Program-made: the position numbers and the translations under genes
The notes under the pieces: generated by a model
Seen by the model: only the letters and a program-made list of their open reading frames with translations
What the model was told of the DNA's origin: nothing
The model's database searches: none
NCBI GenBank assembly: GCA_002269645.1
Contig: NIVC01000251.1
Coordinates: 124,001 to 188,000, forward strand
Reading direction: 5' to 3'
DNA length: 64,000 bases
Source of the DNA: Macrostomum lignano
Lineage: Eukaryota
Shown here: positions 1,200 to 57,385 of the stretch, one piece after another
Position numbering within the stretch: the first letter of the stretch is position 1
Layout of the letters: every line of letters starts with the position of its first letter

Positions 1200-1758
1200 T
1201 TACGTTACATAGCAGAGAGAATGCAAATTCACAGCATCATCTCCGTGTAATGCATTTGCGGTGCCGCTTCTTGTTTGCCTGCCGTCTGGCGGTCGTAGTG
1301 TAGTTTATCTAGAATTCATCGGCTGATGTTTCAACGGCTGCCATCGGACAGATTAGACAGAGTGTTGCTCTCGCGTTTGACGACTGTCTGCACTTCGGAG
1401 ACACCATTCACTGCTCAGCTTTAATTTGTGCGCCTCGTCGGCCGGCAGACGCGCACACGGCACTCGACAGTCAGCACTGCGTCCTTCCGCAGCTGCCTCC
1501 GCTTGCACGTCCGGCGGAGGCTTCTGGCCTGCTGCTTTTGCTTCCGTGACACTGCGCCATAGGTCCGTCGCTGAATCAGTACTTGTTGCGTGGTTATTGA
1601 AAACGACCCTCGAAGCAGACGGAGAGCCCTTCGTCCCAGCATCAGTTCAGTCGGCGACTTCTTAGTCAGTACGTGATGGATGACCAATACATCAGCAGCA
1701 GCTTCTGAAGCACGGCCACCTGCTGCACCGGCACGCCAGTATGCAGAGTGGTCTTGAT
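1200..1758 (-). pseudogene. Ty3/Gypsy pol remnant, distal part of integrase (left of the Polinton insertion)
   Basis: Minus strand reads ...HHVLTKKSPTELMLGRR, matching the Gypsy integrase YRxTPHxxTxxSPAELxLGR motif. It is colinear across the CTTGAT TSD with the integrase core at 12615+. The left boundary is approximate. Confidence 0.7.
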
Positions 1759-2400
1759 ACTACGTAATGCGCAGATAACGGTTGATTTTGGAGGTGAGGT
1801 GGGTGTCAGAGCCAATGCAAATTCAACGCCTATCTAAATGCATTAGACCTCTTCTAATTGGTCCAGACCCTCATTATGATTCATGTAAGTCATTATGTGA
1901 GATATTCATGCATGTAACTCTCATGTAAATCTAATTATACATGTAATCAGTGTACATTCCCATTAGTACATTGTGTCGTACAGAAGCGACGACCAGTACA
2001 ATATAGTACGCATAATTAGCGCTTCACCGTAGCAGTTGTTGTACGCAGAAGCGCGCGCGCGCCCAGCCCAGCACAATGCAGCATTGGTGTACGCAGAATT
2101 AACTGTCCATATACCAAAAATTGGCAGAATTAACGTGCGCCGACCCACCCCATAACTGTCCATATTATTACTTGTCCATATTTACTGTCCATCCCAAAAT
2201 TGGTGTACGCGCCGAATTGTAGCGCCCGCCCACCCCATAGCTGTTCGATCATACCCAAAATTGGTGTACGCGCAGAATTAGAGCCCACCCTTCCAAGAAA
2301 ATATTTTGTCGCCCCTCACAATTAATTGGCGGCCCCACGCGGAGACATGATGAGTCAGCCGCTGTAAATCACTGCTGTCCACACTGTTATATCCACCCCT
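1759..2400 (+). repeat. Left terminal inverted repeat of Polinton-1
   Basis: Inverted homology to 12121-12614, with indels. Contains repeated (CCAAAA)TTGGTGTACGC-CAGAATT units. Confidence 0.9.
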
Positions 2401-2545
2401 TCCAAACTTCACTCTCTAGAATTCTGCCCTCGTCGACACTCCGAGACAATTACGTCATCCCCCAACCCCCTCTCCCAAATAAGTTTTCAAAAGGCGTATA
2501 TATATATTTACACAAAAAGCCGGCCGAGCTTTGATACGTATATAT

Positions 2546-3196
2546 TTATTTAGCATACACAATTGGGTGACGACCCAAAACGTTTGAATAATAGCGAGCA
2601 GGAGCATTTTGCAAACAGTTTACAATCAAGTATGAGTAGGGGTCGCGAGTAGCATCCTCATACGTTTTGACAAAACTTTTTGGATTAGTGGGGACCAGCT
2701 GCCTTGCAATATGAGACACTGTGCTGGCATCCCATACATTGCGGAATAAAACAAGGTAGTTCGAATTGAGCGACTGAGTTCGGTGCTCCTTACCCTTTGC
2801 AAACAGGTTTTGCACAAGATACCAAAGTCGGAACCCCACGTGGGAGACTTTGCGCGTGAAAAAAGTTGTAAAAGCGCCACTCTTTTCCATGGCATGCATT
2901 TGGTCGTCGACGACAAGCAGAATATTTGGTTCAGGGACATATTGTTCAGGATCAAATGTACACGAACGAAAATTTACAGGGTACGGCAATTCAAACAGTT
3001 CAGGATCCGGATAGTGGCCAAACCAGTCTACGCGAATCGGCTTCGGATCTTGAAAAAATTCTTGTCTCAATAGGTTTTTCACAAGTGTGGTCTTGCCGCT
3101 TTGAGCCACCCCAGCAAAAATTGCCGACGTTTTGGGGGCAAATTTTAAAGAGTCGGGGTCTATTGTTTGATACATTTTGATAGGCAGCCCAATCAT
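2546..3196 (-). CDS. A32/FtsK-like DNA packaging ATPase
   Basis: Walker A AGVAQSGKTT, Walker B LLVVDD, and FTRKVSH..LVQNLF..RTQSLNSNYLVLFRN, typical of Polinton/NCLDV A32-like ATPases. Confidence 0.92.
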   Translation of the reverse strand: MIGLPIKMYQTIDPDSLKFAPKTSAIFAGVAQSGKTTLVKNLLRQEFFQDPKPIRVDWFGHYPDPELFELPYPVNFRSCTFDPEQYVPEPNILLVVDDQMHAMEKSGAFTTFFTRKVSHVGFRLWYLVQNLFAKGKEHRTQSLNSNYLVLFRNVWDASTVSHIARQLVPTNPKSFVKTYEDATRDPYSYLIVNCLQNAPARYYSNVLGRHPIVYAK

Positions 3197-3198
3197 AT

Positions 3199-4354
3199 TT
3201 ATGGATGATGCTGCTTTATTTGTAGACAGTGATTCTGCACCATCAAGTCGTTCTCGTAAAGATTTGTGCTATAACAGTCGCGCAATATTTTTTCAATTGA
3301 CAGACCCTCCAGAAAGTGTTTTTCAGCCACAAATATTACATGAGCCCCGCAGGTCACACTCAGCGGATGCTGTACAGGATGCCGGTTCATGGCCACCTCC
3401 ACAGGGACATACTTTGCGATCCACAACTTTAATAAATCTGGCACAGGATTGATACACAAGGGGTCAAAAAATGTCACGCTCTCATCGGCATGAAGACAAC
3501 AAGGACGACTTAAGTAGAAGGACGGGAAACCTCGTTTCTTAGAAAATTTTTGAAGGCACTTTTTCCCGAAAAAATACACTGCGGAGATAGGAAATTTTCA
3601 TTTTTTCAGCACAAAAATTGCTATAACTTTTGATAGGAGGCAGATCCAGTGTTGATCTTTTGATATGTTGTGCCTTTTTTATTGCTCTATCGATATTTAT
3701 AAAGCTTTCCGTTCAGAAAATTAGGATTCTATGTTAATTTTTTATTCTACGTATATTTTCATGTGTCTTGTGCTTGAAATACATTAGAATGCCACGGCTC
3801 GGCTCTTTAGCTTCATGAGTCTATTTTATCATTCTTACCCGACTGTGTAGCAAATAGTCGTAACACAGATGATAAAATAGATTCATAAAACCAAATATTA
3901 GAGCTGTGTCATGCATTTTTGTGATTTTTAGATACAGGAAATGTACGTAGAATAAAAAATTAACATAGAATCCTAATTTTCTGAACGGAAAGCTTTATAA
4001 ATATCGATAGAGCAATAAAAAAGGCACAACATATCAAAAGATCAACACTGGATCTGCCTCCTATCAAAAGTTATAGCAATTTTTGTGCTGAAAAAATGAA
4101 AATTTCCTATCTCCGCAGTGTATTTTTTCGGGAAAAAGTGCCTTCAAAAATTTTCTAAGAAACGAGGTTTCCCGTCCTTCTACTTAAGTCGTCCTTGGAA
4201 GACAAATTAAAGCCCAGCGAGTGCCTGGTAGATTGCCAGTGTCAAAGTTAATCACGTATGCAGCAGGATAAACAGGCTGCGGAATCCTATCAACTGGTGT
4301 TACTCGAACAGGGACAGGTAGTATTAGACGTTCTAATATATCTAGACTATTCAT
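3199..4354 (-). pseudogene. Adenain-like (C5) cysteine maturation protease interrupted by a MITE
   Basis: Removing 3500-4197 plus one TSD restores a 149-aa ORF: MNSLDILERL...YPAAYVINFDTGNLPGTRWALICLHADESVTFFDPL...QHPLSVTCGAHV. The expected PGxHW motif reads PGTRW. Confidence 0.85.
3500..4197. mobile_element. 698-bp foldback MITE (hAT- or P-like termini)
   Basis: Near-palindromic along its whole length. Termini CAAGGACGACTTAAG...CTTAAGTCGTCCTTG; 8-bp TSD GAAGACAA at 3492-3499 and 4198-4205. Confidence 0.92.
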
Positions 4355-4373
4355 ATCGGCATGAATATGGTCG

Positions 4374-5686
4374 TTATTCGAGAATAAAAAAGAGATGTTT
4401 GTTTCTACACGAGTCTAGAATAACCTGACGACCGCGAGTGATTTGCACAGTATTGTCAAAGTAGCCAAACACCAACACGTTGATTCCTGCGGCCAAGGCA
4501 GCAGAAAACTTTATTTGTAGCGTCAGATTCCCTCGCTCGCGAGGCATGCTATGCCCGCCCAGCTCCATGTCGGGCATGAGATTCCAGGCGAAGAAGCAGT
4601 AGCCAGCTCCATAGTCGGAATATGATACGTCAATATCCAGGTCCCGATTCATCTTTCCTAGGCTTTTTAGTAGCATGGCATACTCGCGAGCATAGTTATG
4701 AACACCGAATCGAGGAGTAAACGGTTGTCCACACAGACTGACTCCGTCCTTATACAGAGCGACACTGTCGGCACCAAACGGTTCAAAATTAAACGGGTTA
4801 TGTGTAGCCACACCGTTGTATGCGCCGCTGTTCACCATGCCAACAACCACTAGTTTAGGCTTTTGTTCAGGAAATATATTGTTGATTGACATGTCCCGAA
4901 CACCGCCAGCCACTGAAGTATTGTGCACAACAAGTCGCTCAATCGGATAGATTGCATTCTGTTTGCCTAGTTGTTCTTCAATCTCCAATGCCAATTGGGG
5001 GTTTGCCTTGACGCGGCGCACATGTAGTTTGGCACTCTCGAGTACCAGCCGCGCATCAACCCCGTCCGCGTGGTTTTCCAGAACGAAGCCGGAATTGTGC
5101 ATGGTCAGCGTAATTACCATATCAGTGTATGGCAGTAGCATTCGGTCGTTGGTAACAAAAAAGTCTAAACTAAGAGGTCCATAAAGGTGAAAGGTGCGTG
5201 AGTTTGCCGCCATCGCCTTGCGGGCTACAAAGCCAGGATTTCCAACCACAGCCATTTGACCTCCAGCGTCCTTTGCGTAGCCCATCATTCTCAGTTGGTT
5301 GGTTTTTGAATCGTGTCCGTAATTCAAACACGTGCGAATATAGGCCTTGTAAGCGTGGTTGTTATTGCTCGACTCTACGTGTGTCCCGTTGATTGTCAAC
5401 GTGACGTTTTTAAACATGCTTTCAAGGACGTAATTGACCGGCGCAACATTCGAATCAGCAGCAAGATTTGTACCATTAGACTGCTTAACGCGGGCCTTAA
5501 TCTCGAGGTCAATGTCGTTAAGATCGATAAACGTCTCACCACCAACAATCCTAAATTCGACCACGCTGGCATTTTCAACACTGGCAACAGGGTGAACTTC
5601 TTCAGTGGTGCGCTAATTGCAGCAATTTGGTGTGCGCGAGGAGCAAATAGCTCGAATTCCGACTTTGTACACAGGCACTCAGTCAT
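4374..5686 (-). pseudogene. Major capsid protein (double jelly-roll, Polinton/adintovirus hexon-like) with one frameshift near 5612
   Basis: N-terminus MTECLCTKSEFELF (Polinton KSELDLF motif) is in one frame; the 396-aa body (EEVHPVASVENASVVEFRIVG..., PKLVVVGMV, NPFNFEPF, YCFFAWNLMPD) is in another. One missing base restores the frame. Confidence 0.85.
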
Positions 5687-5729
5687 TTTTCTTTCAACAG
5701 CGGCTTAGTGTGGTGCTCTAATAGACAGA

Positions 5730-6098
5730 TCAGTTATTGGCACGGGTTTTTTTATTTATAGAGTCGAAAATATCAGAATGCTGCAGTCTTTTTCTCGTTT
5801 TTTTGTTAGTCATCTTTCTTCGTCTTTGTCTGCCGCTACCTCGTTGTGCGACTGTGTCCTTGAAAGCATCTTTAGCTGCCTGGACAGAGTTACGCAATGC
5901 CGCTTCTTTCAAGTTCCCGCCTTGATCGAGTGTGTCGCTAACTGTTGTAGCTAGGGCTCGTGTTCCGTGGCGAAGAATATTTTTGCCAAAACTCTTTAAA
6001 ATTGGCAGGGCAAATCGGGCAATGCTGCCAAACAGGCCGTTGCCGCGCTGTGCACCGGAAAATACCGGTAAAGCTCCTCCGATCAAGATTGAAGGCAT
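5730..6098 (-). CDS. Small basic putative virion core/membrane-active protein with adenain-type cleavage motifs
   Basis: LIGG^A matches the adenain (M/L/I)xGG^x consensus. Also QRGNG and QRGSG motifs, an amphipathic FGSIARFALPILKSFG segment and a basic C-terminus. Lies between MCP and penton. Confidence 0.6.
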   Translation of the reverse strand: MPSILIGGALPVFSGAQRGNGLFGSIARFALPILKSFGKNILRHGTRALATTVSDTLDQGGNLKEAALRNSVQAAKDAFKDTVAQRGSGRQRRRKMTNKKTRKRLQHSDIFDSINKKTRANN

Positions 6099-6138
6099 AT
6101 TGTCGATCAGTTGCTACCTTTTATTCGTGAAAACTTCT

Positions 6139-7296
6139 TTATTTATAGCTTAATTTCACGAATGTTGATCGATAAAACAGTTTTGCCTCGAAGAATCGAT
6201 CCATTAACTTGCCCATATCGTCACAGATTTGCACCTCAATGGTTTTGAATGGGTGTTTCACCAACGGTAAGTAGGATGGATTGACAAACTCGTAGTACTC
6301 TCGTTCGCCGTATACCTTTTCATTCAAAGGAATTGCCCCAAGCAGGGGGACTTTGACGTCTCCAACAATGGCAGAGTCGACAATATTTGAATAGATGTAC
6401 ATAGTTTGTACACCATTTGTTAAATCGATTGGTCGTTTAGCGGTCTTTGGAGTTTCATTGAAAACATCTTCGCGAAAGCCGAGAATGGCAGCAAGCTCTC
6501 CAATGTCGAATAAAATGTTTTCAATGGGTTTGTACTCACACCGGTTCAGAAAAGGGTTGTAGCGGAATGCATCCACTCTCGTCGCTGGACTTATTGGGAG
6601 CTTTGAAACGACGCCCCAAAGCGCTCCATTAACATAATTTAAGAGCTCATCAGGCGTGCGGTAGAATCCTTTAGCAATCCGCAGTGACGTTCTAGAAGGC
6701 CAGACACTCTTTTCAAACGTTAGAGTCATCGGACTCTCTATGGAGGAGGAGGACTCCAATTCTATAGCGAATACTAACGAATTTCTTGGGTTTAATAAAA
6801 AAGTCGTTACTTCGATATTTGATTTATTTCCAGCGTCATCAACCTTTTTAAACATGCTACGCACATTACTGGACAGCCTAATGTTCGCACCATACCATGA
6901 TTTGTTCACAATTGAAATTTGGCCTTCCTGTGAACGCTCAATGCAAATCATCGCATTATCGTCTTGCTCATATTTTAGATCGGCGATGATTGCATCAACC
7001 ACTTCGTTGGCTGTTGATAGCCCCGCGGCGAGAGAAACCGACGCAAACTGTTTATACGTGGAGGCGGGTTTTTCTCTCACCTCAATGTCAATCACTTCAT
7101 CCTCGGGAGCGTTGGTCAGGACATCAACCATTCGATTATCGGGGACGGTTTTGAATTCTTTACAAAAGTAGATCCGTTCGATGCAGACTTCATGATTCGG
7201 AAAGTGGAGGGTGTCGGGCAAATTAATGCTATAATGTGCCGAATTATTCTCAGGATAGTGCTCAACGCACGCATTGCTAGGTAGGAATAGATGCAT
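6139..7296 (-). CDS. Minor capsid protein (penton-like)
   Basis: N-terminal LFLPSN..YPENN..YSINLP and C-terminal MYIYSNIV..VGDVKVPLL..NPSYLP..TIEVQICD, characteristic of Polinton minor capsid proteins. Confidence 0.85.
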   Translation of the reverse strand: MHLFLPSNACVEHYPENNSAHYSINLPDTLHFPNHEVCIERIYFCKEFKTVPDNRMVDVLTNAPEDEVIDIEVREKPASTYKQFASVSLAAGLSTANEVVDAIIADLKYEQDDNAMICIERSQEGQISIVNKSWYGANIRLSSNVRSMFKKVDDAGNKSNIEVTTFLLNPRNSLVFAIELESSSSIESPMTLTFEKSVWPSRTSLRIAKGFYRTPDELLNYVNGALWGVVSKLPISPATRVDAFRYNPFLNRCEYKPIENILFDIGELAAILGFREDVFNETPKTAKRPIDLTNGVQTMYIYSNIVDSAIVGDVKVPLLGAIPLNEKVYGEREYYEFVNPSYLPLVKHPFKTIEVQICDDMGKLMDRFFEAKLFYRSTFVKLSYK

Positions 7297-7330
7297 TGTA
7301 ATATACTACACGTTTCGAGTGTATGTGTGT

Positions 7331-8404
7331 TCATCCTTGTCTTATATTTATAACTTCCTCAACTGGTACAAATGCATTGAACGACTCGGGATAGCCGCGC
7401 CAACTAACGAAATGATGAGCGACACCATTGATGATGACATTGCGACGCAGAATTTTGTCTATAACAAAGCGGTCCGGTCGAACCGTCTTTGAAAGTTCAT
7501 TATAGTAGAATCGACCCTCGATTTGTTCTCCAGATAGGTCGGAAATGCGATAAAAATGAGGCGGTCCCGGGCATACTTGAGACACAACGTAAACTTCTTC
7601 GCTGTACATATCGTATGCTTCCTTGTCAAAGGCTCGACGAGATTTTGAAATTCTGACAAAGTCCCCTTTTTGGTAAACTGGTTCATCATATTCAGGATCC
7701 TTGTAGAGCTTTTCCCACAATTCTTTTTGATTGTGCAGACCGACACTCGAAGGTTTCATATCAATAGTAGAGTGTACTGTGTTGTTGTAACTTTTAACCA
7801 ATATTGGCAAATAGTCGATCCAACGCCACGTGTTTTTATGCTCAAAGTAGCGAGCTAAACGTTTTCGGAGAGTCCTAATCAGCCTTTCAGCCATATTTGC
7901 CTTGTATACAGAGTTTGTACTGTACATTTTGATATTATGGGCTTTCAGTAAGTTCTGCATGCGATTGTTATAAAACTCGGTACCTCGATCAACGTGTAGA
8001 TATAAAGGCTTAATGGGGAAGTCTTTGATCATGCTTTCAAAAGCCTTTGGAGTGTCGCTTTTCAATTTTATTGACTGACAAAAAGCCAATTTACTAAGCA
8101 CGTCAATTGCAACTAGAATATATCGATGACCATCATTCCATTGTTCGTATCGCGACATGTCCATCAAATCCGCTTGCACAGTTTCCATGAAGCCTCCCGA
8201 CATTACTTTTCCGGTTCGGAATTTTCTTTTAACCCTCTTGTGCCGGGTGTAGCTCGATTGGGTCTTCAGCCATTCGTCGGTTTGGCGTCTCGTCAGGGAG
8301 GGGACCAGCCGTTTGGCCTCCTGATATACACGGGCAGCATTTGTAAAAGCGGCGTCCCCCTGTTCGTACACTCTCCGAAGAGCGGTTTTCACCCTCATTC
8401 GCAA
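7331..8404 (-). CDS. Retroviral-like (rve) DDE integrase with C-terminal chromodomain-like region
   Basis: QADLMDM, AIDVLSK, HVDRGTEF, AERLIRTLR; C-terminal IDKILRR..FVSWRGYPESFN. Open frame of 357 aa. Confidence 0.93.
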   Translation of the reverse strand: MRMRVKTALRRVYEQGDAAFTNAARVYQEAKRLVPSLTRRQTDEWLKTQSSYTRHKRVKRKFRTGKVMSGGFMETVQADLMDMSRYEQWNDGHRYILVAIDVLSKLAFCQSIKLKSDTPKAFESMIKDFPIKPLYLHVDRGTEFYNNRMQNLLKAHNIKMYSTNSVYKANMAERLIRTLRKRLARYFEHKNTWRWIDYLPILVKSYNNTVHSTIDMKPSSVGLHNQKELWEKLYKDPEYDEPVYQKGDFVRISKSRRAFDKEAYDMYSEEVYVVSQVCPGPPHFYRISDLSGEQIEGRFYYNELSKTVRPDRFVIDKILRRNVIINGVAHHFVSWRGYPESFNAFVPVEEVINIRQG

Positions 8405-8535
8405 CTAGATTCGATGCACAGCATGAGTAATTACACTTGAACTCCACAGACGGTTTGTCTGAGCAAAGCTTTGAAGTTACAGCTGCGGCACCCATGATCC
8501 AAAAACAGATTATAAATCATGAAAATGATTTCTAT

Positions 8536-9210
8536 TTATAGTTTTTTTAACGTCTCGTATTTTACTGCTGGTTTCTGCCGCCTCTTTGGTTCGCGAAGTT
8601 GGTATGAAGCATGCCTGTAGGCATCGCTGCCACGATCTTCATATTTTTTAATTTCATTCAGGCCACTGGCTTGGTCTTTGTGGAAGTCGTTGTAGAAATC
8701 ATTAGTTCCAATTGCTTGCTCGACTAAAAAATCGTCTCGATCCGGATCCGTGCCGACTTCTTTTTTCACACTGACTTCTTCTTGTTGGCGTCGTCCTAGT
8801 AGAGCTTTTGCAATATCTGCCTCTTCGGCCAGGGCCCAAAAAGCGGTACTATATTTTGGGCTTGGGCGGTCGCGCCTTTCATTCGATGTAATCTCCTTCA
8901 ATAGATCGAAAATATTGCTTCCTGGCCAGGTTTTTCCATCAAATACAATTTCCCACGACTTGTTGTACTCCAAATTTGGGTATCTTTCTGTCAGCATGTC
9001 CCAAACACGTTGTTGTCGTTCAGGAAAACGATTACTCTTCTTTTGCTTGATCTGACTTAGTTTATTTTGGAGTTGAGTGTTGTATTCAATGAGTTTTTCA
9101 TATTCTGTTTTGGATGCAATTTCTCGGGGTGCGCCTTGACTTAGTCTATTAAATTCTTCTTCTGGTACAACAACGTATTTATTCATTTTAGCGACCAAGT
9201 AGTCCGCCAA
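8536..9210 (-). CDS. Conserved Polinton-type hypothetical protein
   Basis: 224-aa ORF. KYVVVPEE start and GSNIFDLL motif resemble uncharacterised Polinton ORFs as I recall them; recognition by eye only. Confidence 0.55.
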   Translation of the reverse strand: MADYLVAKMNKYVVVPEEEFNRLSQGAPREIASKTEYEKLIEYNTQLQNKLSQIKQKKSNRFPERQQRVWDMLTERYPNLEYNKSWEIVFDGKTWPGSNIFDLLKEITSNERRDRPSPKYSTAFWALAEEADIAKALLGRRQQEEVSVKKEVGTDPDRDDFLVEQAIGTNDFYNDFHKDQASGLNEIKKYEDRGSDAYRHASYQLREPKRRQKPAVKYETLKKL

Positions 9211-9544
9211 ACAGGCTTGATATTAGCGGTGCAGCAACAGATGCAAGGATGGGTAGAAAACCACCGACTTGAGGATTCGAGAGAAGCATATTCTTCTTCC
9301 TATTTATAGACAATTTTGTGTCTGCCAATTCACGCAACGATCTTCTGTATCGCTTTAATCGCAGATACTGTTTCGGAGAAAGATCGATATTTCCCCGGAG
9401 CACGTTGTGACTCAATTCACAGAGACAATGAATCAGTTCCTTGCCTGCACCTCGAATAATGGCCCGCCGAAGAGTGGGACGGGCTTTGGCGAGCTCTGCG
9501 AGCTCGCCGCGACAAGAACATAGTCTGGAGATTCCGTTTGTCAT
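9188..9544 (-). CDS. Small basic protein ending in QVGG^FLPIL amphipathic peptide (putative protease-matured virion protein)
   Basis: CELSHNVLRGNI..KRYRRSLRELA..QVGGFLPILASVAAPLISSLFGG. The start at MTNGIS is assumed; the ORF track extends to 9634. Confidence 0.6.
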   Translation of the reverse strand: MTNGISRLCSCRGELAELAKARPTLRRAIIRGAGKELIHCLCELSHNVLRGNIDLSPKQYLRLKRYRRSLRELADTKLSINRKKNMLLSNPQVGGFLPILASVAAPLISSLFGGLLGR

Positions 9545-9681
9545 TTTGTTTAGCAAAGATGTTGTTGCAGTGCACCGCAATTTATGCACAATATATTTAT
9601 AGACAATTTCATAGCAGCTTGTACGTACATACAAATTCGGTACAGTGGTAAAACAGTAAAGTTACGCAACAGCTACATGGA

Positions 9682-10160
9682 TTAGACATGCAAAACGCTA
9701 GTCACATGATCGTACATTTGACAGAGCTCTTTAAAGTTTCGTATTCCAAGGAAAACAAGGCGGCCATTCTTTCCGCATAATAAACATTTAGCATTGCGAA
9801 ATGGAGACTTTATTACTATTCCATTGAAAACTTCACACTCCCACTTCACCCAGCGGGACCCGGAGTATGCAATTTGGAAAAAGTTTGGCCATCTGTCTAC
9901 TTCAGCGCGGTAAGTACTAGTGGTAACAACAACAGAAATTGGTTTACATTGAGGAAAAAGACGCAAAACTTGGTTGATGAGCGACAACCGAATACAATTG
10001 CAGACAAAGAACGCTGAAAAAAGTTGATTGTACATTTTCCTATTCGCAAATTGATAAGAGCTCTTGGTCTGCGAAATGTCCGTGCGCTCGCCCAGTCCAA
10101 GTCAGGCATGCGGCTCCATTTCGCGCAAAACACTCGGTTCACACACTCGACGTTCTGCAA
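9682..10160 (-). pseudogene. Divergent TATA-binding-protein (TBP)-fold gene, frameshifted near 9980
   Basis: Repeat 1: [14 protein letters not shown] and ALINLRIGKCTINFF..AIVFGCRS align with TBP NIVSTVNLGCKLDL and AAVIMRI..TTALIF..MVCTGAKS. Repeat 2: [43 protein letters not shown] aligns with [43 protein letters not shown]. No in-frame ATG at the 5' end. Confidence 0.65.
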
Positions 10161-10179
10161 GTAGATTTTTCGGCAGTTT

Positions 10180-10890
10180 TTACTTTCGTATCCTTCTTGG
10201 GGCTTTCGACCGCTTCTTTGATTCGTTGGCTGCTACTAGTTTCGATTGATGCTGTCGCTTTCTGGCCTGATTTTTAGGCACCTTTGGCTGCTTCTCCTTG
10301 ACAAGCTTTGGTGGTTTCTTTGCTTTCTTGCTTACTTTCTTGGCGCCTACCTTGATTTTTGGAGGTGGCGTCCAATAGCAACGATCGAATGCCTGTTTGG
10401 CTTCTTCGACAAACTGTAGCTGTTGAATTTTTGGCATTGCGGTCAAAACAGCGTCTCGAATCACGGCCGTGTCGAGAGTAAACAGAATCCTGTAGTAGCC
10501 GCTCTTGTTTTTGTAATCCTCTACAGGCAGTCCGTTTTGGTCGTACATTTTAAAGTCGTGAGCCAGCCCAAACGCTGCACTGTCACCTCCAAACGCTGGG
10601 TTGTAGCCCAGCAGAGCTAGACTTTCGCTGGAAAGGTGCTCCGCCACAGTGTTGAAAGTGTAGGGTATGCAGCTCTCAATGTGTTTTTGTGCAATGATGA
10701 TGAATTCGCGACCTTCGTTGTCAGTACGCACGCCCTTGACGATCAAAACAGGGACCGCATTGGCCAAGTAGAGAGGTCCCTGTTCGTCATATTCAATGTC
10801 AAACGTTTCAACCCCGTTGAAGCTCGGACCTCGCGGTTTGAGTGCCAGCAGCTCTCGCTTGACGCAGTTGAAGTCTTGCACTGTCTCCAT
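10180..10890 (-). CDS. Hypothetical protein; beta-rich core plus lysine-rich tail (possible ssDNA-binding protein)
   Basis: Intact 236-aa ORF with a TATATAAG box ~65 nt upstream. Function is inferred only. Confidence 0.55.
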   Translation of the reverse strand: METVQDFNCVKRELLALKPRGPSFNGVETFDIEYDEQGPLYLANAVPVLIVKGVRTDNEGREFIIIAQKHIESCIPYTFNTVAEHLSSESLALLGYNPAFGGDSAAFGLAHDFKMYDQNGLPVEDYKNKSGYYRILFTLDTAVIRDAVLTAMPKIQQLQFVEEAKQAFDRCYWTPPPKIKVGAKKVSKKAKKPPKLVKEKQPKVPKNQARKRQHQSKLVAANESKKRSKAPRRIRK

Positions 10891-10905
10891 GTCTCTTGTC
10901 TGTTT

Positions 10906-11165
10906 AGAAAAATTTGCAGGTACGGGCGCTTGCAGATGCTCCGGGCTGGTGCTTATATACCCGAGAGTCTCAATAAGTTTTTGTTTTAATTACACGATAA
11001 CGAGCTTTTTACAGAGTTGTCGTTATCGAGGATTCCGGAAAAAATGAACCTTTTGTTCCTATTTTCGGGTGCTGGCGTTGGAGGTGTGCTGAAATCCTTG
11101 CTCCAAGTTGCTGGTAGTTCAAGCTTTGGCGGCCTGTTCCTCTTGTGCTTTGGCAGCCAAAAATT
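10906..11165 (-). promoter_or_regulatory. TATA-containing upstream cassette, copy 1
   Basis: ~260-bp direct repeat of 11599-11851. Minus strand GGGTATATAAGCACC lies upstream of the ATG at 10890. Confidence 0.6.
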
Positions 11166-11196
11166 CCAAATCTTTTGTTGCTCCTCCCACGACGGA

Positions 11197-11520
11197 TTAT
11201 TCAGATCTTGATGGTTCCGAAAAAATTTTTTGGCGATGCTCTTCACTTAGTATCGGAGTCAGTAATCTTTCCATTCGTGCTAAATCAGCTTTGAATCTCA
11301 TTTTGTCCCGTAGTTGCTCATTTATCCTGGCTGCTGCGTAGTCTTGGCTGTCGTAGGGGCCTTGATCAATTTCCTCGACCTTGGCATTGAAGGTGACTAA
11401 TCGCTCGGAAATCGGTTTGCTGTGGCAAATGCACAACCAGTCAGCAGATTTTTTCAAGGCCTCATATTCGTCTTTTTTCTTGTTCGATAATAGGGGGTAG
11501 TCTCTGGAAATCCAGCTCAT
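11197..11520 (-). CDS. Hypothetical protein (107 aa)
   Basis: ATG-initiated ORF directly downstream of TATA cassette copy 2; no recognised motif. Confidence 0.45.
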   Translation of the reverse strand: MSWISRDYPLLSNKKKDEYEALKKSADWLCICHSKPISERLVTFNAKVEEIDQGPYDSQDYAAARINEQLRDKMRFKADLARMERLLTPILSEEHRQKIFSEPSRSE

Positions 11521-11598
11521 TTCTCGTCAAGCACTTGCTGCGTTGTTCGCACTAGTGGTGGGGATGTTATTCGAGCTTGAAAAACTGCCGAGAATCCG

Positions 11599-11851
11599 AG
11601 AAAAATTTGCAGGTACGGGTGCTTGGTGCCCCGGGTTGGTGCTTATATACCCGAGAGTCTCAATAAGTTTTTGTTTTAATTACATGTTAACGAGCTTTTT
11701 ACGGTGTTGTCGTTATCGAGGATTCCAGAAAAAATGAGACTTGTACCTATTTTCGGTGCTGGCGTTGGAGGTGTGTTGAAATCCTTGCTCAAAGTTGTTG
11801 GCAGTTCATGCTTTGTCGGTCTGATCCTCTTGTGCTTTGGCAACCAAAATT
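11599..11851 (-). promoter_or_regulatory. TATA-containing upstream cassette, copy 2
   Basis: Direct repeat of 10906-11165 with the same TATATAAG box. Confidence 0.6.
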
Positions 11852-12120
11852 GCTTGTCAAACACTGCGTTTTCCACATGATTGGGTTGTTAATTGAACTT
11901 GGTGAATTTAGATAAACGGCCGAGAATCCAAATTTTCTTATTTATAGTTTGCTGTCTGAACAAAGTTGGTTTGGCATCTTGTCAAACGAGAATATTTCAT
12001 CCATAGAAGTTTGTGTTTTCAGACCTTGATGACGTGTCTGGCTATAAAGTTAGCATTGTGGCTCGACCGGGTTGTTGCGTAACACTGCTACAGGTAGCTA
12101 TAGCGGCCAGCGCAGGGCAG

Positions 12121-12614
12121 AGGGGTGGACAGCGGCGATTTACTGGCTGACTGACTCATCATGCCTCCGCGTGGGGCCGCCAATTTTGTGGGGTCACAGA
12201 CAATTCTGTGCGTACACCAATTTTGGGATGGACAGTAAATATGGACAAGTAATAATATGGACAGTTATGGGGTGGGTGGGCGCTCTAATTCTGCCAATTT
12301 TTGGTATATGGACAGTTAATTCTGCGTACACCAATGCTGCATTGTGTGGGGATGGGGGCGCGCGCGCTTCTGCGTACAACAACTGCTACGGTGAAGCGCT
12401 AATTATGCGTACTATATTGTACTGGTCGCTTCTGTACGACACAATGTACACTGATTACATGTATAATTAGATTTACATGAGAGTATAAATGTCTCACATA
12501 ATGACTCTGGACCAATTAGAAGAGGTCTAATGCATTTAGATAGGCGTTGAATTTGCATTGGCTCTGACACCCACCTCACCTCCAAAATCAACCGTTATCT
12601 GCGCATTACGTAGT
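12121..12614 (-). repeat. Right terminal inverted repeat of Polinton-1
   Basis: Reverse complement of 1759-2400, shorter by internal indels. Confidence 0.9.
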
Positions 12615-14200
12615 CTTGATTAAGCCGTTGTATATGTTACCTGTCGACTCTGCAATTCTGCTGTGGGCACTAGAACGGAGTGAGATGGTGCCTGATGATG
12701 GCGACCGAGCTGAGGAAGTCCGTGAACTCACTCGACGCAAATTAATGCCGTGGTAATAATTCGTCTGAAGTCCCAGCGGATAAACAGGCTGCAACACAGG
12801 CAGTCACGGATGAAGATGCTCTATACGTGAATGATCCTTGGCTATGATCTAAGGCCACTTGAAGTAGAAAACGTGGACTGCGATGAAAAATCGTTGAGAC
12901 TGCACCAAACTTAGCTGCCGGCAGCTCTCCGACGCTGTCAATTTGCAGCTGTCGCCATGGACCCGCTGGTACATGTAGCTCTGTCGATGACCATACGACC
13001 TTGATCGGCTTGAACGCATTCTCGGAAAGGACGCAATCGCTACAGTTCCGCAGGAAGGCCTCCACGCAACGGTAGATTCGCGACGACAAGGCAATGCGCC
13101 TTGACCTTTTGCCAATACCGCAATGTCCCTGATGCGTCTCTGCCAGCACAAGGTCGCGGAAGTTACCTGGGATGATCCTCATCCTCGGCTGGTCATCCGT
13201 TGATGTGGTACCCGATGACTCGCTGGAGTTGATTGTCGCTCTTCGTTGCGTCAGCCAGTTGAATGACTAAGATTGGCTGGGCGCTTCTGGCCAGCACCAG
13301 GTTGATGTCGGACTCACTGACTGTACTTTCAATTGCCACCGTAGCCATAGGGAGACAGAAAGTCGAACTGGACGTTGAGCTTGCTGTGGAGGTAATGGAT
13401 GTTTATTGAAGTCGTAAACAAAGAGTCGCTCAATACCAGCACTTGGTTTTCGGTGAGCTCCAGACGCAGGCCAGAGCCTCCCTCTTCGACACAGAGTATC
13501 GGCGCTCGGTGGTCGGAAAATGACAGGCTAATGTGGCGAGGGCGACTTAGCTCTCGGGTCATCGTCGCTGCTAACGCGGAGACAACAGATTCGTGATCTG
13601 CGGTCGAAGAATTTCAGGCACGGTGCTGATGAGATAAGCCGCTAATTCACCTCTCTAAAGGTGGCCTCGAATTTCGCGTCGCAGTTCCATAGCGCTTCCT
13701 TGTACAAGAGCGCTGTCAGCAACTCGGCGACGTGCAGAGACAGGTTCTTGATGTAGAGCAGAAAGAAATTAGAAAAACCGCGAGAAATGAAGCCAAGCCC
13801 TGCTATATTTCCGGGTGCTTTGAGTTGCGGTATAATGGCGGTCTTGATAGGAAGCCATCAACGCCTTTGGTGCCTTCTAAGTTTTGGGTAAAATTGGTTC
13901 AAGAACACCTGACCAACCTGAAGCAAATCAGTAAGTCTACTTACCTTCTTTCTAAGTCCTCTCAGCAACAACGGTAAATCAGGAGACATTCGCTATTCTG
14001 CGACACAGGTGCACGAATTTATCAAGCACTTGAGCAACAAATTCCAGCTTTCAAGACATATTTAGCAACCGCTTCATCCGTTCAACAAGGGATACTTCAT
14101 CAGCGAGACGATGGATGTGACTAGACACCGATCGGAATCCCAAACGGCGAAGAGCGCTCATTTTGTTGATGGAGGCACCTGCTATAAAAATGCTGGTCTC
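12615..14200 (-). pseudogene. Decayed Ty3/Gypsy pol (RT C-terminus, RNase H, integrase)
   Basis: HHCC zinc domain ETHQGHCGI...CSDC, PAGPWRQLQID, SSEFTDFL...RHHLTP, RT-thumb-like IKNLSLHVAELLTALLYKEALW, and PFGI near 14150. Many stops and frameshifts. Confidence 0.8.
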
Positions 14201-16359: not shown

Positions 16360-17970
16360 GCATGATTTATGACGGCACATGTCATCTTCCCTGGGGTCTG
16401 AAGGCCACCTCGTGGGTGGGTTTTGGGGTCTTGAGCTCAGCCAATCAGAGTCGACCTGACTGCCCCCGGCTCGACCAATCAGAAAATTCGGCGCCTATTT
16501 TAACAAAAGCTCTCAGCCAATCGGAAATTTCGGCGTGCGTTATAACAAATCGGCCGCGTGGGAGCTATAAAAGGCGGCAACTCGAACCGCGCTCGAGACA
16601 CTTGTTGTTTTCTCACGGGACTTTTGCGAACTGTTCTGTTACTCACTGGCCTTTGATGCCCGGTTTTTGTCCCTGCCAAGGCCTTCTGGGGCGCTCGACT
16701 TGGCCGGATACTGCCTTCAGGCTCTTCCCCCTTGCGATCCTGCCGACCTGATCCTCCTTCCCCCGGCAGTTTCGGCTTCAACAGCTAAGTTCCCCCTGAG
16801 AAGCATCATCAATATCTCCCGGCAGTGATCTAAGAACAGCAACGACAACCGGCAAGTGAAGAGCAACAGCGTCACGCGTCAGTTAAGATCAGCAGCAGCA
16901 TACCATCTGAGTGCTTCGGTCTCTGTGGATTCCTTGGCCACCGGCAGATATGTCCTCTGATTGGTTTGGTGAGAGGCTCTCTTGACCTGCTTAACTGAGT
17001 GCACCCTTTGTCTGACCCCTTCCTAGGTAGTCTGATAGGATTTGCACTTTTGGTTACTTGCTTTTGTGTGCCAATCTCGAGGCAGAAGTGTCAGTTAATA
17101 TTAAAAGTAGCCATTTGCTCTAACTCAATCTAAAGTGTCTAGGATTGCGGATTAAGTGAGAAAGTTAAATCTGGAAGTTAAAGACAGCATTTTCTTTCTT
17201 TTTCGCAATGCCAGCTGAAATGTGCGGCTAAATCTAGAGGCAGAGGTCACGGTGGACCGGAAGCGGCACAGTTCCCAGTCAATCAGTCGATCTAAGAAAT
17301 CATTATGTTAAGCATGCAAATTAAGTGCCAGACTGGCGCTTTGGCGCGGTCACAGGCAGTCAAGCGGCTAAAGTAAGTTAAATATTAGTCTAAAGATCTC
17401 CGAAAGTGACAATGCATCTACATCATCGCTATCTGTCGACGTGTTAACACATTTAGTGCCATTAGAGTGCAGTTACGTGTACTTTTACATGTACTTCTGG
17501 GAATTTGGTAAAGAAATAGTACATTTAGTAGTGTATAGAGGCCCGCCAGCGCAAGAACCCCCTGCAGAAGTCCTCTCTGTCCCTGCATGGCCAATGCGAT
17601 CTTAGTCCCAGCAGCGTCCCTTCTATTCGGCTATGACTTCGAGATAGACAGCTAAAAGACACTAGAGGCAGGTAAGTGCAGTGCCCCTCTAGTCGCAAGT
17701 CCGATTTCGATAGCTCCGGTTTGGTGAGCCGGGGCGCACGGGCTGGTGGCAGCGGGTTAGTTAATCTGCGGATTAGCTAATCTCTACCTTTCAAATTCTC
17801 CCTGCTTGTCTCTCGCTGTCTTCTCCTAGCTATAGGACCTTGCTGCTCGCCCACAATCTAGCTACCATGGGGCTGACCATCTGACAGGAGTGAGAGGCCA
17901 GAGTTCTAAGTGATTCATTTCTGAATTCTGAGGCCCGAAGCCATGGGCTTAAAAAGGCCGAACCCATCAA
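16360..17970 (+). repeat. Non-coding interspersed repeat copy A (promoter + intron; LTR/leader-like)
   Basis: Homologous throughout to the reverse complement of ~61480-62950. CCAAT boxes at 16441, 16475 and 16517; TATAAAA at 16566. Confidence 0.75.
16439..16572 (+). promoter_or_regulatory. Triple CCAAT box + TATA Pol II promoter
   Basis: AGCCAATCAG, ACCAATCAG and AGCCAATCGG, then CTATAAAAG. The arrangement is conserved in copy B. Confidence 0.65.
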
Positions 17971-18930: not shown

Positions 18931-21029
18931 TTGAGATGTGGGTGAGAGAGTTGGAGAGGCTAGGTGAGGGGTAGGGCGTGAGGTAGAGGGTGCTTGCGGG
19001 GTACGTATCGTTGACTACATATCGGTGTACACACATATCGGGGGAGTGTACCTTTGGCTCGGGAGGGGGCGCCTACGGCATGGGCGCCTGCGGCATGGCC
19101 GGCGCCTGAATGGCGCTTGGCGCCACGCGCCTGCGGCGCGCGCGCCAGCCAATGAGAGGCGAGGAGGGTTGACACCCACCCCACCTCCAAAATCGACAGA
19201 TACGCAAGTCCTTAGTAGTGCTGAACCCTGACATACTCAGACTGAGACATCTCTTCCTGGCAGAGACAATAACTACGAGAGTGACATTCAGAAAGCTGCT
19301 ATGCAGTGCGAGCCTGAACTCAGTGTGTTGTATTGCAGTCCTTGTCCGTTCGTCGTGAACTCAATTTACTTTGCTGAAGTGTTGTGCTGGAAATAAAGAT
19401 TACCAGATGGCCTTCCTGCGTCATTTTTCAAGCTCTCGAAAGCTCTCTTGTACAGTCCTCCGACCAGATAAAAGAAGTGGTGGGCTTCCGCAGACGGTTC
19501 AATGGTGCATTAACTTTGGAAGAAAATTCAGGAATGAGACGTCCAAAAAATGACTAGCCCCAAAAACTGCTCGACCTCCGAAGAAAGTGATCTCATTGCA
19601 TGAGTCAGAGTACTTTCTCGTTGACACTGACTTTCTTCTCTGCCAGCCTCGACTCGTCTTAACCGAGGTCTGCAGTCGCTTACTAAGCCAGTCGGCATTC
19701 TCAGCAAGATAAGATCTAGAACATCATCTTGATAAAATAAGTGACATGGAACCCACACAATCTCTTTGAATCCACTGCACCAGATGCCAGTCCAGTGGAA
19801 TACATGTACACTATAGTAACTTGTCATACTATGAGTAGTGCCATAGGCGCACTTGTGTATGTTTATTACATTTCGTGCGGGGAGTCAACGGATTGCAACT
19901 GCAGAGAATTGAGCAATCGTGCAGAAAATCTTTTTTCTCAATTGAGCAAAAGAGAAGAAACGTTGTTGCAAAGAGGGCTTTTTATGAAGAATGTCTTTCA
20001 GTAAGCAAGCAGTGAGACAGCTGCAGATGTGCTAGCTGGTAGTTGGAGTCTATACTGATAATCCACGCGAGGGACGCCTGCGGGAAGTGCCGGCATGAGG
20101 GCAGGGAGCTGAGTCTGCCGATACTGTGGGTGAGTGAGCTGAGTTTTGAGTCTTTAGTCTCTGACTGCTGCATTACCTTGTCGATCTCTTGAACGGCATA
20201 TCAAGGAGCCCTGAGACCTCCTGGAGGACTTCCAGCGCAGAGTCGACGGCTCCATCTGCAGCTTCAACCGTGGCTGGTCGGAGTACATGAACGTCAGCGG
20301 ATTCGTTGAGAGCGAGAGAGTCTCAACTACTGGATGGGGCTGAAGCAGCTGCACCAGCTCACCGCCGCTGCAGTGTGGAGAGTCCACTGGGAGTCAGCGA
20401 CTGAAACGGCACCTGGTACTGGGCTGAGAATGCTCCGTTTTCTGTTGGCCCAGCGGCTAACAAAAGTACAGCTGTGCTCGATGGGATCGCTGGACGCGAG
20501 CAGGTTGAGTGTCAGACTGCAAACTGATTGGTGCTGGTCTCTGGTCGAGAGAGGTCCGCCGGCTGGTGGTACGATCAATGCACTTTTATCAGCTCCAACG
20601 GAGTGTTCCGGCCTGCTTCTAAGCGTAGGAATGTACTATCATCTGCCCTGATGCTGGCCTTGGAGCTGACGCTATACTCCTCGATGAAGATCGAACTTCG
20701 AATGCTTGATTCGCCAGTGATGACGGAGAGCCAATCCGTGTAGCTAAAAAACTGCAATTGATTGATAAAACTTAACAGTCTTAACTGTTATTCTAGACAG
20801 CTGACGGCTGCCTACATGTAGTATGTCAGGTCGAGAGCTCTGATGCCTATTATGAACTTTCGGTTAGGTTAGTCAATAATGCCCATAGGAGCTGGCCTTG
20901 TGAAGGATTATAATTTCGGCAATGAGAAATTTCGGTCTAGAACTGCCCATTTTTATCAACAAAAGCGCTCTAAATCACGAAATTTTTTGTAAAAAGATAT
21001 TATAAATGAAAAATATATTAGTTATACTC

Positions 21030-21710: not shown

Positions 21711-22262
21711 ATTAGTGCGCTGAGTCTTTTGCTAGGCCCTTTCTCTGCACTTATGCACTGCACTCTACACTGCACAGCACAGCAGGCATCAGGCATCAGC
21801 GTTTTTCAATTTTCACAGTTTATTTTTTTTTCTATGGCCAACTACAAATATCAGGCGAGGGTATTGCTGGTAAGTTAGGCTGTGCCTAAAGATTGCTACA
21901 TTGAGTTGTTTGTCTAAACATTAACTGCTTTATACAGCAGTTAGTTAGTTAGTTTTTTAGCAGTATCAAACTTAAGTTAGACCTAAAATTTAGGAAGATG
22001 CTTTTTTTTCAATTTTTCTCTGTTTTATTATAATTTGATAAATAAATAATCTTCAACAAGACATACACATTTATTTGAATTTGAAATCAAAATATTAATT
22101 ATCAATTACTACTTTTTTAATGTTTTCTTTTGTTAAGCAAAAGTCTATTCTAAACAAAGGCCTATAGATAGTCAATAAATGTAGGCCCAACTAGCCTATG
22201 GTTAGCTCATATAGGATTAAACTTCATATAATGTCAAAATCTAAAAACTAAGGGCAATTTTT

Positions 22263-25200: not shown

Positions 25201-25421
25201 AAAGCCACGTCATCATTACGTTACCGTAATATGGGCCATAGATATTCCTTTGCCTACCAATGGCTTTATGGTATATTAGATATATAATATTAACAAAACT
25301 GCTACTTTCTCAACTAGGAAAGGGCTGGGTACACTGGAGAGCTCGAAAATAATCATCTCAGAGCAAGATAGTTCAGAAATCATTGAAAAAATAATTTAAT
25401 GAATGAAACTTGAAGATTGCC
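22263..25421 (-). mobile_element. Merlin (IS1016-like) DNA transposon, internally deleted
   Basis: ~137-bp TIRs beginning GGCAATC (GGNRM consensus), 8-bp TSD CAATTTTT (22255-22262, 25422-25429), and a transposase remnant inside. Confidence 0.85.
24635..25065 (-). pseudogene. Merlin transposase remnant (Zn ribbon joined to C-terminus; DDE core missing)
   Basis: LIANQQVCANC...DSYAWACTNC is followed closely by YLDEFIWR...FGNIL, the Merlin/IS1016 C-terminal motif. Confidence 0.75.
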
Positions 25422-26550
25422 CAATTTTTTAGAACAACCATTTTTTGCAATTCAACATTCTTTGTTGTCATATGAATCCATGTTGATAGTATTGCGGCAT
25501 CTTTTCATTTTATGATCCCCATTCCTAGGCACTTTCGTTATACAATCCCTGTGTAAAAGATGCAGTGAAAGAATATAGACACCAAAGGACTGGAAACATA
25601 TCCATCCATCAAAAAGTCAAAGTCACTGCACTAAGGCCATTTCAAAAGCTGTTTATTTTGAAGGCAATCAAACAAAGCCTGGACAAGAGTCTTCGCAAGA
25701 GTAGTATAGGAGCCTCCCTATATTCACTTTTGTTATACGATCATTTAAATAGAGGAAATGTATAGAAAGGGATCGGATAACGAAACTTAGGCTTTTTATC
25801 AATTTTGTAATATGATCTCTTAAATTGGAAATTTGTTTGCAGGGGATCGTATATCAAACCCGCTGAAAAATAGGGCAAGATTTTGGTTCGGATTTTTTTA
25901 GTTTGGCTGGATATTCTATATATCTGTTTAGTGGGAGAATATCCAATCATTTCTTTGGATAAGTGATGCCAACTTTATATATCCGGATGCTTTGTTCGGA
26001 TATTGTAGTTTTGTATCTCGACAAAACATCCGGATATCTGCATTGAATCCAGATGTAAGTCCGGAAATGTATCTAGCTATATCGTGCCAATTTTCACATT
26101 AATTTAGTTTTCCAAAGGATAATGCAGCATAATCTGCTGCTTCACTCGTACGGATAAATTCTGTTAATTCAAATGAATGAATTATAGCAATTCTTTTGTG
26201 CATTTTAGTTGACAAAAAGGGAAATAATTTTATTATATGTTGTTGATATATTTGATGCTAACAAGTGTAATGATATTATTAAAAAACAAGGAAATAACTG
26301 AAAATAAAAAAAACTTAAGTCTAGTGTTCAAGTAGCTTTTAATGACATTGGTGCCAAATTGTATTTGCACACAAGAAAATTTCAGACACTTAATTTCAGG
26401 CATTGCAGATAAAATTTAGTCAGGTACAGTTGCAACTGGAAATTCAGTGACCACATAAGCTCTCATGGACAGCTTTCTAAAATCCAGGGTTGATCTGAGC
26501 AAAAAATCGAAGAAGGTCATATATGCATTGAAAAAACAGTGCAGTAAGTA

Positions 26551-35261: not shown

Positions 35262-35547
35262 TCACATTCTCCCAATAATAATTGTTAGCACAAACTCTTT
35301 TCCATTAAAATCGACACCAACTCCATCCTCTGTCTCAAACTGCAGAACAATTTCATGTATCTCTCTATTACTCAGAATCACTCTTTTCACAGGGTTTGGA
35401 TTTTGCACAAGCATTTGGCCACCAGCAACAGAGTTTGAAATGTTAAAAAGTATGTTGGTTCATTTGCCTTTGAATATCCAATCAAGGCTCAGATTGCTGC
35501 AAATTAATATATTCAAGCCTTTGACAATGTTAGCAATATTTGGCGCC
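35262..35547 (-). pseudogene. Penton C-terminal fragment
   Basis: APNIANIVKGLNILI..DGVGVDFNGKEFVL, homologous to 28243-28540. Confidence 0.7.
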
Positions 35548-35599
35548 TAGTACATACCGGATACTGGCCAGGACATATGCCAGGCGCCTGCGGCAGGCT

Positions 35600-57363: not shown

Positions 57364-57385
57364 TACGATGAAATATATTTCTTCT

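What the first reader, a model, noticed from the sequence alone, without database searches (positions are those of the whole stretch)
1759..12614. Complete-ended Polinton with full virion module and integrase but no DNA polymerase
Seen: both TIRs and a 6-bp TSD are intact. Every interval between them holds ATPase, protease, MCP, core, penton, integrase or small ORFs, leaving no room for, or trace of, a ~1000-aa pPolB or a helicase. The native size is ~10.15 kb after removing the MITE. Established: pPolB defines self-synthesizing Polintons. Inference: this is a satellite-like, packaging- and integration-competent lineage that borrows replication from a helper Polinton or the host. A post-insertion deletion is the alternative.
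Basis: partly seen in the sequence, partly recalled or inferred. Interest (0 to 1): 0.8.

Follow-up and report, generated by a model that had tools for sequence, protein, structure and literature searches.

The report
Polinton copy missing its DNA polymerase
This is a virus-like jumping element with both ends, capsid genes and integrase but no DNA polymerase; it probably borrowed one from a relative, as already reported in butterflies, but this single damaged copy cannot prove it.

Summary
1759-12614 is a Polinton with terminal inverted repeats (outer 108 bp identical), a 6-bp target duplication inside a decayed Gypsy-like integrase, and a native length of 10,150 bp. No Pfam polymerase or helicase match reached its curated cut-off in 128 of 128 ORFs of 40 aa or more, and the longest stretch without an assigned gene is 1.2 kb. 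Corrections: this copy is not packaging-competent as assembled. The capsid gene has two frameshifts, and the protease is split by a MITE. Two 'small ORFs' are conserved genes: a probable T7 gp2.5-type ssDNA-binding protein and a frameshifted TBP-like gene. No polymerase scar was found, which favours loss before insertion and copying by a helper Polinton (0.42). Deletion after insertion remains open (0.33), because the end next to the right repeat is unexplained and carries a 257-bp direct repeat. Other genomic copies could not be retrieved, so a 'satellite lineage' is untested (0.17). Polymerase-less, still mobile Polintons are already described in a preprint on butterflies. Verdict: real, a variant of a known kind, moderate interest.

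The parts
1753..1758 (.). Target site duplication, left copy (CTTGAT)
1759..2382 (+). Left terminal inverted repeat; begins 5'-ACTACG
2546..3196 (-). Packaging ATPase, open; Walker A GVAQSGKT and Walker B LLVVDD read from the sequence
   Evidence: only weak P-loop hits in Pfam; FtsK-type assignment is from recall and position
3199..3499 (-). Adenain-like protease, 3' part
   Evidence: motifs recalled, no database hit
3500..4197 (.). MITE inserted in the protease gene; 259-bp identical arms, 8-bp TSD GAAGACAA, ends CAAGG (P- or hAT-type, from recall)
4198..4354 (-). Adenain-like protease, 5' part; the motif that normally carries the catalytic histidine is altered
   Evidence: motif recalled
4404..5686 (-). 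Major capsid protein (PY-type), frameshifted near 5610 and near 4412
   Evidence: 78-80% identical to three intact 427-aa relatives; a distant relative is fused to an rve integrase; fold not tested
5730..6098 (-). Basic core-like protein (PW / 'Cupiennin' position), open
   Evidence: assignment by position and recall
6139..7296 (-). Minor capsid protein / penton (PX position, one gene from MCP), open
   Evidence: position as in Krupovic 2014; no database hit
7331..8398 (-). rve integrase with C-terminal chromodomain-like region, open, D-D-E residues present
   Evidence: Pfam rve E 2.5e-8, Chromo E 0.055
8536..9186 (-). Open 217-aa ORF in the PZ / Adintoc2 position
   Evidence: not identified by any search
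9188..9544 (-). Open 118-aa ORF with a pX-like GGFLP tail (PM / 'GasderminX' position)
   Evidence: motif recalled
9682..10160 (-). TBP-like gene, frameshifted near 9970-9985; ends exactly where its intact relative ends
   Evidence: relatives P0022 and P0023 at 66-67%; Pfam TBP E 0.0024 and 0.044, below cut-off; NCBIfam TBP E 0.18
10180..10890 (-). Probable T7 gp2.5-type single-stranded-DNA-binding protein, open
   Evidence: family at 57-61%; model pLDDT 46; top 4 of 48,161 chains are SSBs or SSB-fold proteins, Z 3.1-4.5; not recovered by Foldseek on PDB
10906..11162 (.). Direct repeat, copy 2 (ATTAAA signal, TATATAA box, leader); 89% identical to copy 1 over 257 bp
11197..11520 (-). Unidentified 107-aa ORF between the two repeats
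   Evidence: no significant match
11599..11849 (.). Direct repeat, copy 1
12125..12614 (-). Right terminal inverted repeat
12615..12620 (.). Target site duplication, right copy (CTTGAT)

Best explanation
A non-autonomous Polinton. A complete parent lost its pPolB gene cleanly, most likely by recombination while outside the chromosome. Because pPolB carries both the terminal-protein primer and the polymerase, the shortened genome was copied by the pPolB of a related Polinton that recognises the same ends (or was moved by integrase without copying). It was inserted by an rve integrase into a decayed Gypsy element, making the 6-bp duplication. It was later disabled by a MITE and a few frameshifts. 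Shown: ends, TSD, gene content, damage, no detectable polymerase. Inferred: the timing of the loss, the helper, and all steps of replication.
For: No polymerase remnant in 128 of 128 ORFs. Gene ends that face candidate junctions are whole where testable: the TBP-like C-terminus and the SSB-like N-terminus match intact relatives. Toy model: 1,332 of 775,123 large random deletions leave both neighbours whole and under 120 bp of polymerase per side. The copy looks young (outer 123 aligned TIR columns without a mismatch, MITE arms identical), which leaves little time for a remnant to erode. Retention of an SSB-like gene points to a parent with a replication module. Precedent: polB-less, TIR-flanked polintons in Pieris mannii amplified while close relatives keep polB.
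Against: Only one copy was seen; no helper was found in the window (57 of 90 ORFs of 95 aa or more outside the element scanned, no pPolB). The toy model assumes the polymerase sat between two short spacers; it fails if it sat in the unassigned 10.9-12.1 kb end or between direct repeats, and the copy was picked for looking clean. Pfam covers the catalytic part and may miss divergent Beta-type or N-terminal pPolB pieces (Starrett 2021). In vertebrates 96% of Maverick loci are decayed fossils, so decay in place has a high prior.
Confidence: 0.42

Rival explanations
1. Deletion after insertion. A complete Polinton inserted here and later lost pPolB in the chromosome, possibly cleanly by recombination between repeated promoter-terminator units like the 257-bp pair near the right end.
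For: The copy has other post-insertion damage (MITE, three frameshifts). A 257-bp direct repeat at 89% shows that intergenic units are duplicated in this element. 1,234 bp next to the right TIR are unassigned and hold what may be truncated ORFs. Most Maverick loci are defective; partial C. elegans remnants with TIRs are described.
Against: No remnant detected; a clean random deletion is rare in the toy model; all other core genes are present at full length; the copy looks young.
Confidence: 0.33
2. A long-lived polymerase-less satellite lineage, or the capsid half of a two-part polintovirus whose pPolB travels on a separate element with matching ends.
For: Compact single-strand layout with short spacers and no scar; keeps its own SSB-like and TBP-like genes; relatives 78-84% identical in MCP and 57-67% in SSB and TBP show a diversified family, and two of them probably share one 1,720-bp contig, in line with the same gene pair. 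A preprint argues that replication modules of these viruses may move on their own.
Against: None of the relatives' contigs could be read, so their pPolB status is unknown. In the one described case close relatives keep polB. Nearly all long adenain-bearing animal contigs carry PolB.
Confidence: 0.17
3. Assembly artefact: a collapsed or chimeric join removed the polymerase; the one-base frameshifts would be read errors too.
For: Three short frameshifts in an otherwise stop-free copy fit long-read indel error; direct repeats invite collapse.
Against: Matching TSD and continuous Gypsy frame on both flanks; the two repeat copies are both present and 11% different; no N in the window.
Confidence: 0.05
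4. The element is autonomous through an unrecognised replicase among its small genes.
For: PLVs, Tlr1 and some MELD viruses replace pPolB with helicases or other replicases.
Against: The largest unidentified ORFs are 217 aa or shorter; the 236-aa candidate looks like an SSB; no helicase, primase or Rep hit.
Confidence: 0.03

Closest known systems
polB-lacking polintons of Pieris mannii and a second insect group (Igolkina et al., bioRxiv 10.1101/2025.02.07.637071; passages and section 13 read)
   Same: TIR-flanked, keep capsid, ATPase and integrase genes, lack polB; authors infer continued mobility and note that close relatives keep polB.
   Different: There a LINE or gypsy cargo accompanies or replaces polB and several copies are shown; here there is no cargo in its place, one copy only, and SSB-like and TBP-like genes are kept.
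Animal Polintons / Mavericks with a Beta-class virion module (adintoviruses; Starrett 2021, PMC8502044; Barreat and Katzourakis 2021, PMC8097293)
   Same: TIRs, 6-bp TSD, block integrase - penton - core - hexon - protease; PM- and PZ-position genes; an SSDBP label occurs on coral and Hydra maps.
   Different: No pPolB; 10.15 kb against 12.7-24.6 kb for intact vertebrate elements; all genes on one strand with the ATPase after the protease; ends 5'-ACTACG rather than AGTAGT or AGAGAG (an AC-type end is known from Monopterus).
Tlr1 of Tetrahymena, PLVs and MELD viruses with other replicases (Krupovic 2024, PMC11161782; Starrett 2021)
   Same: Capsid module, and rve integrase in Tlr1, without a canonical pPolB; a TBP-like gene is labelled in a non-animal MELD virus figure.
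   Different: They carry a replacement replicase (S1H, S3H, PolA, AEP); this element carries none.

Membership tests
Polinton/Maverick (autonomous) | Terminal inverted repeats of 100-1500 bp | tested here: met
   624 and 490 bp, outer 108 bp identical
Polinton/Maverick (autonomous) | 5-8 bp (usually 6 bp) target site duplication | tested here: met
   CTTGAT on both sides
Polinton/Maverick (autonomous) | rve-family integrase | tested here: met
   Pfam rve E 2.5e-8
Polinton/Maverick (autonomous) | [quoted passage not shown] | tested here: not met
   No hit in 128 of 128 ORFs; longest unassigned stretch 1,234 bp
Polinton/Maverick (autonomous) | Double jelly-roll MCP, penton, packaging ATPase, adenain protease | tested here: inconclusive
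   Genes present by homology to unnamed proteins, motifs and position; folds not predicted; no PDB sequence hit; MCP and protease broken
Polinton/Maverick (autonomous) | End motif AGTAGT, AGAGAG or ACACACA | tested here: not met
   Ends read 5'-ACTACG...CGTAGT-3' against the motifs; it keeps an AC-N-AC short repeat
Non-autonomous (trans-mobilised) Polinton | Several independent insertions share the same deleted structure | not testable with these tools
   No host genome or contig retrieval; no second copy in the window
Non-autonomous (trans-mobilised) Polinton | A pPolB-bearing helper with the same ends exists in the host | not testable with these tools
   None in the 57 of 90 window ORFs scanned; rest of genome not available
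Tlr1 / PLV type | Replacement replicase (S1H, S3H, PolA, AEP) | tested here: not met
T7 gp2.5-like SSB (ORF 10180-10890) | gp2.5-type OB fold | tested here: inconclusive
   Low-confidence model; ASFV CP312R Z 4.5 (rmsd 4.8, 129 aligned), T7 gp2.5 Z 3.7 (3.4, 101), Enc34 SSB Z 3.5 (3.7, 106), DUF2815 Z 3.1 (3.6, 95) rank 1-4; Foldseek on PDB gave no significant match
TBP (ORF 9682-10160) | Two TBP repeats | tested here: inconclusive
   Second repeat matches Pfam TBP below the gathering score in both intact relatives; first repeat by eye only; no TBP among PDB sequence hits

The most novel reading that the evidence does not exclude
An established animal polintovirus lineage that never carries a polymerase: a 10-kb satellite (or one segment of a two-part virus) with its own capsid, integrase, T7-type SSB and TBP-like transcription factor, replicated by a pPolB on a separate element with the same AC-type ends.
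Probability: 0.17. Interest if true: 0.75.

Novelty: new variant of a known kind. Interest (0 to 1): 0.4.

Why it matters
Surveys find Polintons by requiring pPolB next to integrase, so polymerase-less forms are missed by design. If several insertions share this structure, it would show that pPolB works in trans on shared ends, a step never shown for Polintons, and give a clean test case without cargo. The SSB-like and TBP-like genes add two candidate functions to an animal Polinton. If the copy is unique, it is an ordinary decayed insertion.

Tried and rejected
Looking for sister copies: blastn of the element against the rest of the window gave only a 28-bp match to the TIR at about 19170-19197; the cluster look-up could not be made; the one genome-contig scan gave a single 1,288-bp MCP fragment with no context; viral and metagenome contigs were closed; phage and plasmid collections gave no match. 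So neighbours of relatives stayed unchecked. Idea that ORF 10180-10890 is a detached terminal protein or pPolB piece: rejected, relatives are stand-alone 209-271 aa proteins and the profile search of 1.84 billion proteins gave 7 hits, none a polymerase (3 of the 7 are repetitive proteins that I treated as noise). Idea that stops after this ORF are decay: rejected, that stretch is the overlapping TBP-like gene in another frame. Idea that a missing poly(A) signal marks the junction at 9545-9681: rejected, 7 of 12 gene ends lack one. Coding test on the direct repeat: mismatches 7, 4, 6 by codon position, no signal. First structure model pLDDT 36, unusable; Atlas gave no usable feature hit twice and TM at most 0.34; Foldseek BFVD had 0 matches at E<=0.001, its top rows being uncharacterised giant-virus proteins. 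Rfam: 0 matches. A guess at the host from recall led to one paper search that found nothing useful; the host was not identified. Kapitonov and Jurka 2006 was not held, so its non-autonomous Polintons are recalled only. Starrett's supplement was cut at 4 MB and its protein sets were not seen; bioRxiv supplements were closed and may hold more polB-less examples.
Full report
Observation. The element runs from 1759 to 12614. Its ends are inverted repeats of 624 and 490 bp; the outer 108 bp are identical and the remainder differs by indels and 17 mismatches in 488 aligned columns. CTTGAT is duplicated at 1753-1758 and 12615-12620. Translated separately, the right and left flanks read as two halves of a decayed Gypsy-like integrase whose frame continues across the duplication (by eye; Pfam Integrase_H2C2 E 0.002), so this is a true insertion. 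A 698-bp MITE with identical 259-bp arms and an 8-bp duplication sits at 3500-4197, which gives a native length of 10,150 bp. The ends read ACTACG, not the AGTAGT or AGAGAG of most vertebrate Mavericks; an AC-type end is described from one fish (Barreat and Katzourakis 2021, PMC8097293, passages).

Gene content. All genes lie on the minus strand. From the right end: an unassigned 1.2-kb stretch, a 236-aa ORF, a split 160-aa gene, two ORFs in the PM and PZ positions, integrase, penton, core, MCP, protease and ATPase. Only the integrase has a firm family hit (rve, E 2.5e-8). The MCP is 78-80% identical to three unnamed 427-aa proteins and 32-46% to seven more, one fused to an rve domain; calling it a capsid protein rests on recalled PY motifs and on position (Krupovic 2014, PMC4028283, part 1 of 4 and passages). 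Penton, core, protease and ATPase are named from motifs and position, with no significant database hit. The block integrase - penton - core - hexon - protease matches the labels on Beta-type adintovirus maps, where PolB lies between the ATPase and the accessory genes (Starrett 2021, PMC8502044; text parts 1-2 of 6, section 3.4, passages, and the text layer of Fig. S2).

No polymerase. 128 of 128 ORFs of 40 aa or more in the element gave no Pfam polymerase match at E<=1, and the only helicase-type row was a sub-threshold P-loop match on the ATPase. Recalled pPolB motifs had no match in six frames. Spacers are at most 163 bp except 10891-12124, too short for a gene of about 1,000 codons (size recalled). 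The limit of this test is that Pfam covers the catalytic part, and Beta-type PolB is under 30% identical to the Pfam type, so a short or N-terminal remnant in the unassigned end is not excluded. Outside the element, 57 of 90 ORFs of 95 aa or more were scanned (overlapping and low-complexity frames dropped, the 14.2-16 kb microsatellite left out) and none is a pPolB.

This copy is damaged. The MCP is frameshifted near 5610 and near 4412; the protease is split by the MITE and its catalytic-histidine motif is altered (motif recalled); the TBP-like gene is frameshifted. Integrase, penton, ATPase, core and three other ORFs are open. The frameshifts could be read errors; the MITE cannot. 'Packaging-competent' therefore applies at best to the ancestor of this copy.

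Two small ORFs are conserved genes. ORF 10180-10890 has six relatives at 57-61% and a profile search of 1.84 billion proteins added one fused gene model, one distant member and three repetitive proteins that I treated as noise. Its model is poor (pLDDT 46), yet the four best of 48,161 chains are ASFV CP312R, T7 gp2.5, Enc34 SSB and DUF2815, Z 4.5 to 3.1; that these four share the gp2.5-type SSB fold is partly from their titles and partly recalled. Such Z values are within the range of chance for one hit, and Foldseek on PDB did not recover them, so the name is probable, not shown. An SSDBP label appears on Hydra and coral adintovirus maps. The next gene, 9682-10160, has two intact relatives at 66-67% whose best and only Pfam match is TBP (E 0.0024 and 0.044, below the cut-off). 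A TBP-like gene is labelled in a figure of non-animal MELD viruses; a search for polinton with TBP terms listed one paper holding all three terms, a review not about this (listing only).

When was the polymerase lost? For loss before insertion: no scar; the TBP-like gene ends and the SSB-like gene begins exactly as in relatives; the copy looks young; and in a toy model only 1,332 of 775,123 large random deletions were this clean. Against: the model assumes short spacers on both sides, the copy was chosen for looking clean, and the stretch beside the right TIR holds a 257-bp direct repeat at 89% made of a poly(A)-like signal, TATA box and leader, the kind of unit that could remove a gene cleanly in the chromosome. 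Most vertebrate Maverick loci (96%) are fossils. The direct test, other copies, was out of reach.

Mechanism. pPolB of Polintons carries the terminal protein and a vOTU protease fused to the polymerase (Krupovic 2024, PMC11161782, passages). Losing it removes the primer as well, so host polymerases are an unlikely substitute (inference); a related Polinton with matching ends is the natural helper, or the integrase moved the DNA without copying. I put a sporadic deletion derivative mobilised in trans at 0.42, deletion in place at 0.33, a stable satellite or two-part lineage at 0.17, artefact at 0.05 and a hidden replicase at 0.03.

What is known. A preprint on insect pangenomes reports TIR-flanked polintons without polB that amplified in Pieris mannii while close relatives keep polB, and a second group with a gypsy element in its place (10.1101/2025.02.07.637071, passages and section 13). 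A phrase search for Polintons lacking polB listed 13 of 14 papers; by title and opening lines, that preprint was the only one on animal Polintons; searches gave no other description in the listings or in the passages read. Passages were also read in 10.1101/2024.01.15.575659, 10.1101/2023.08.22.554363, 10.64898/2026.10.13.758929, PMC11131425, PMC3014272, PMC6431247, 10.1101/2022.07.12.499685 and PMC11296320. Short non-autonomous Polintons in Repbase are recalled, not checked. The element works like a non-autonomous Polinton; it fails the pPolB test for an autonomous one; membership of a trans-mobilised family is untested.

Verdict. A real, well-bounded, polymerase-less Polinton; a variant of a known kind, distinguished by having no cargo in place of polB and by SSB-like and TBP-like genes. 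Interest 0.4, rising to about 0.75 if several independent copies or a matching polymerase-only partner turn up.

Noticed in passing
window 28324-29300 and 35300-36300 (minus strand): Decayed pieces of a second virus-like element: a penton-like frame (by eye, recalled motif) in two copies 73% alike over 300 bp, the second next to an rve integrase fragment (Pfam E 3.7e-6). No DNA similarity to the focal element.
   Followed up: partly
window 22260-25424: Inverted repeats of 140 bp at 96% enclose 2.9 kb with a decayed integrase fragment at 23120-23374 (28% to the focal integrase, E 0.002); possibly a Ginger-type or other small DDE element.
   Followed up: no
window 42351-48529 (minus strand): Helitron with Rep, PIF1 helicase and an OTU-like protease domain.
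   Followed up: no
window 54505-60268 (minus strand): LINE with endonuclease and reverse transcriptase whose ORF1 region carries an AlkB-type 2OG-Fe(II) oxygenase domain (E 1.7e-29).
   Followed up: no
window 16475-17924 and 61535-62860: Long-range inverted similarity of 80-90% in several blocks about 44 kb apart; probably two copies of one repeat.
   Followed up: no
window 19170-19197: 28-bp match (93%) to TIR positions 23-50, without the terminal bases.
   Followed up: partly
window 2383-2545: Spacer between left TIR and ATPase end has a CRE-like ACGTCA and a TATATATA run on the plus strand with no gene behind it; could be an orphan promoter or just the ATPase 3' end.
   Followed up: no
L001:2-1046: A Polinton-type MCP fragment (32% identity) on a 1,288-bp contig of a bacterial MAG, most likely eukaryotic or viral carry-over.
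   Followed up: no
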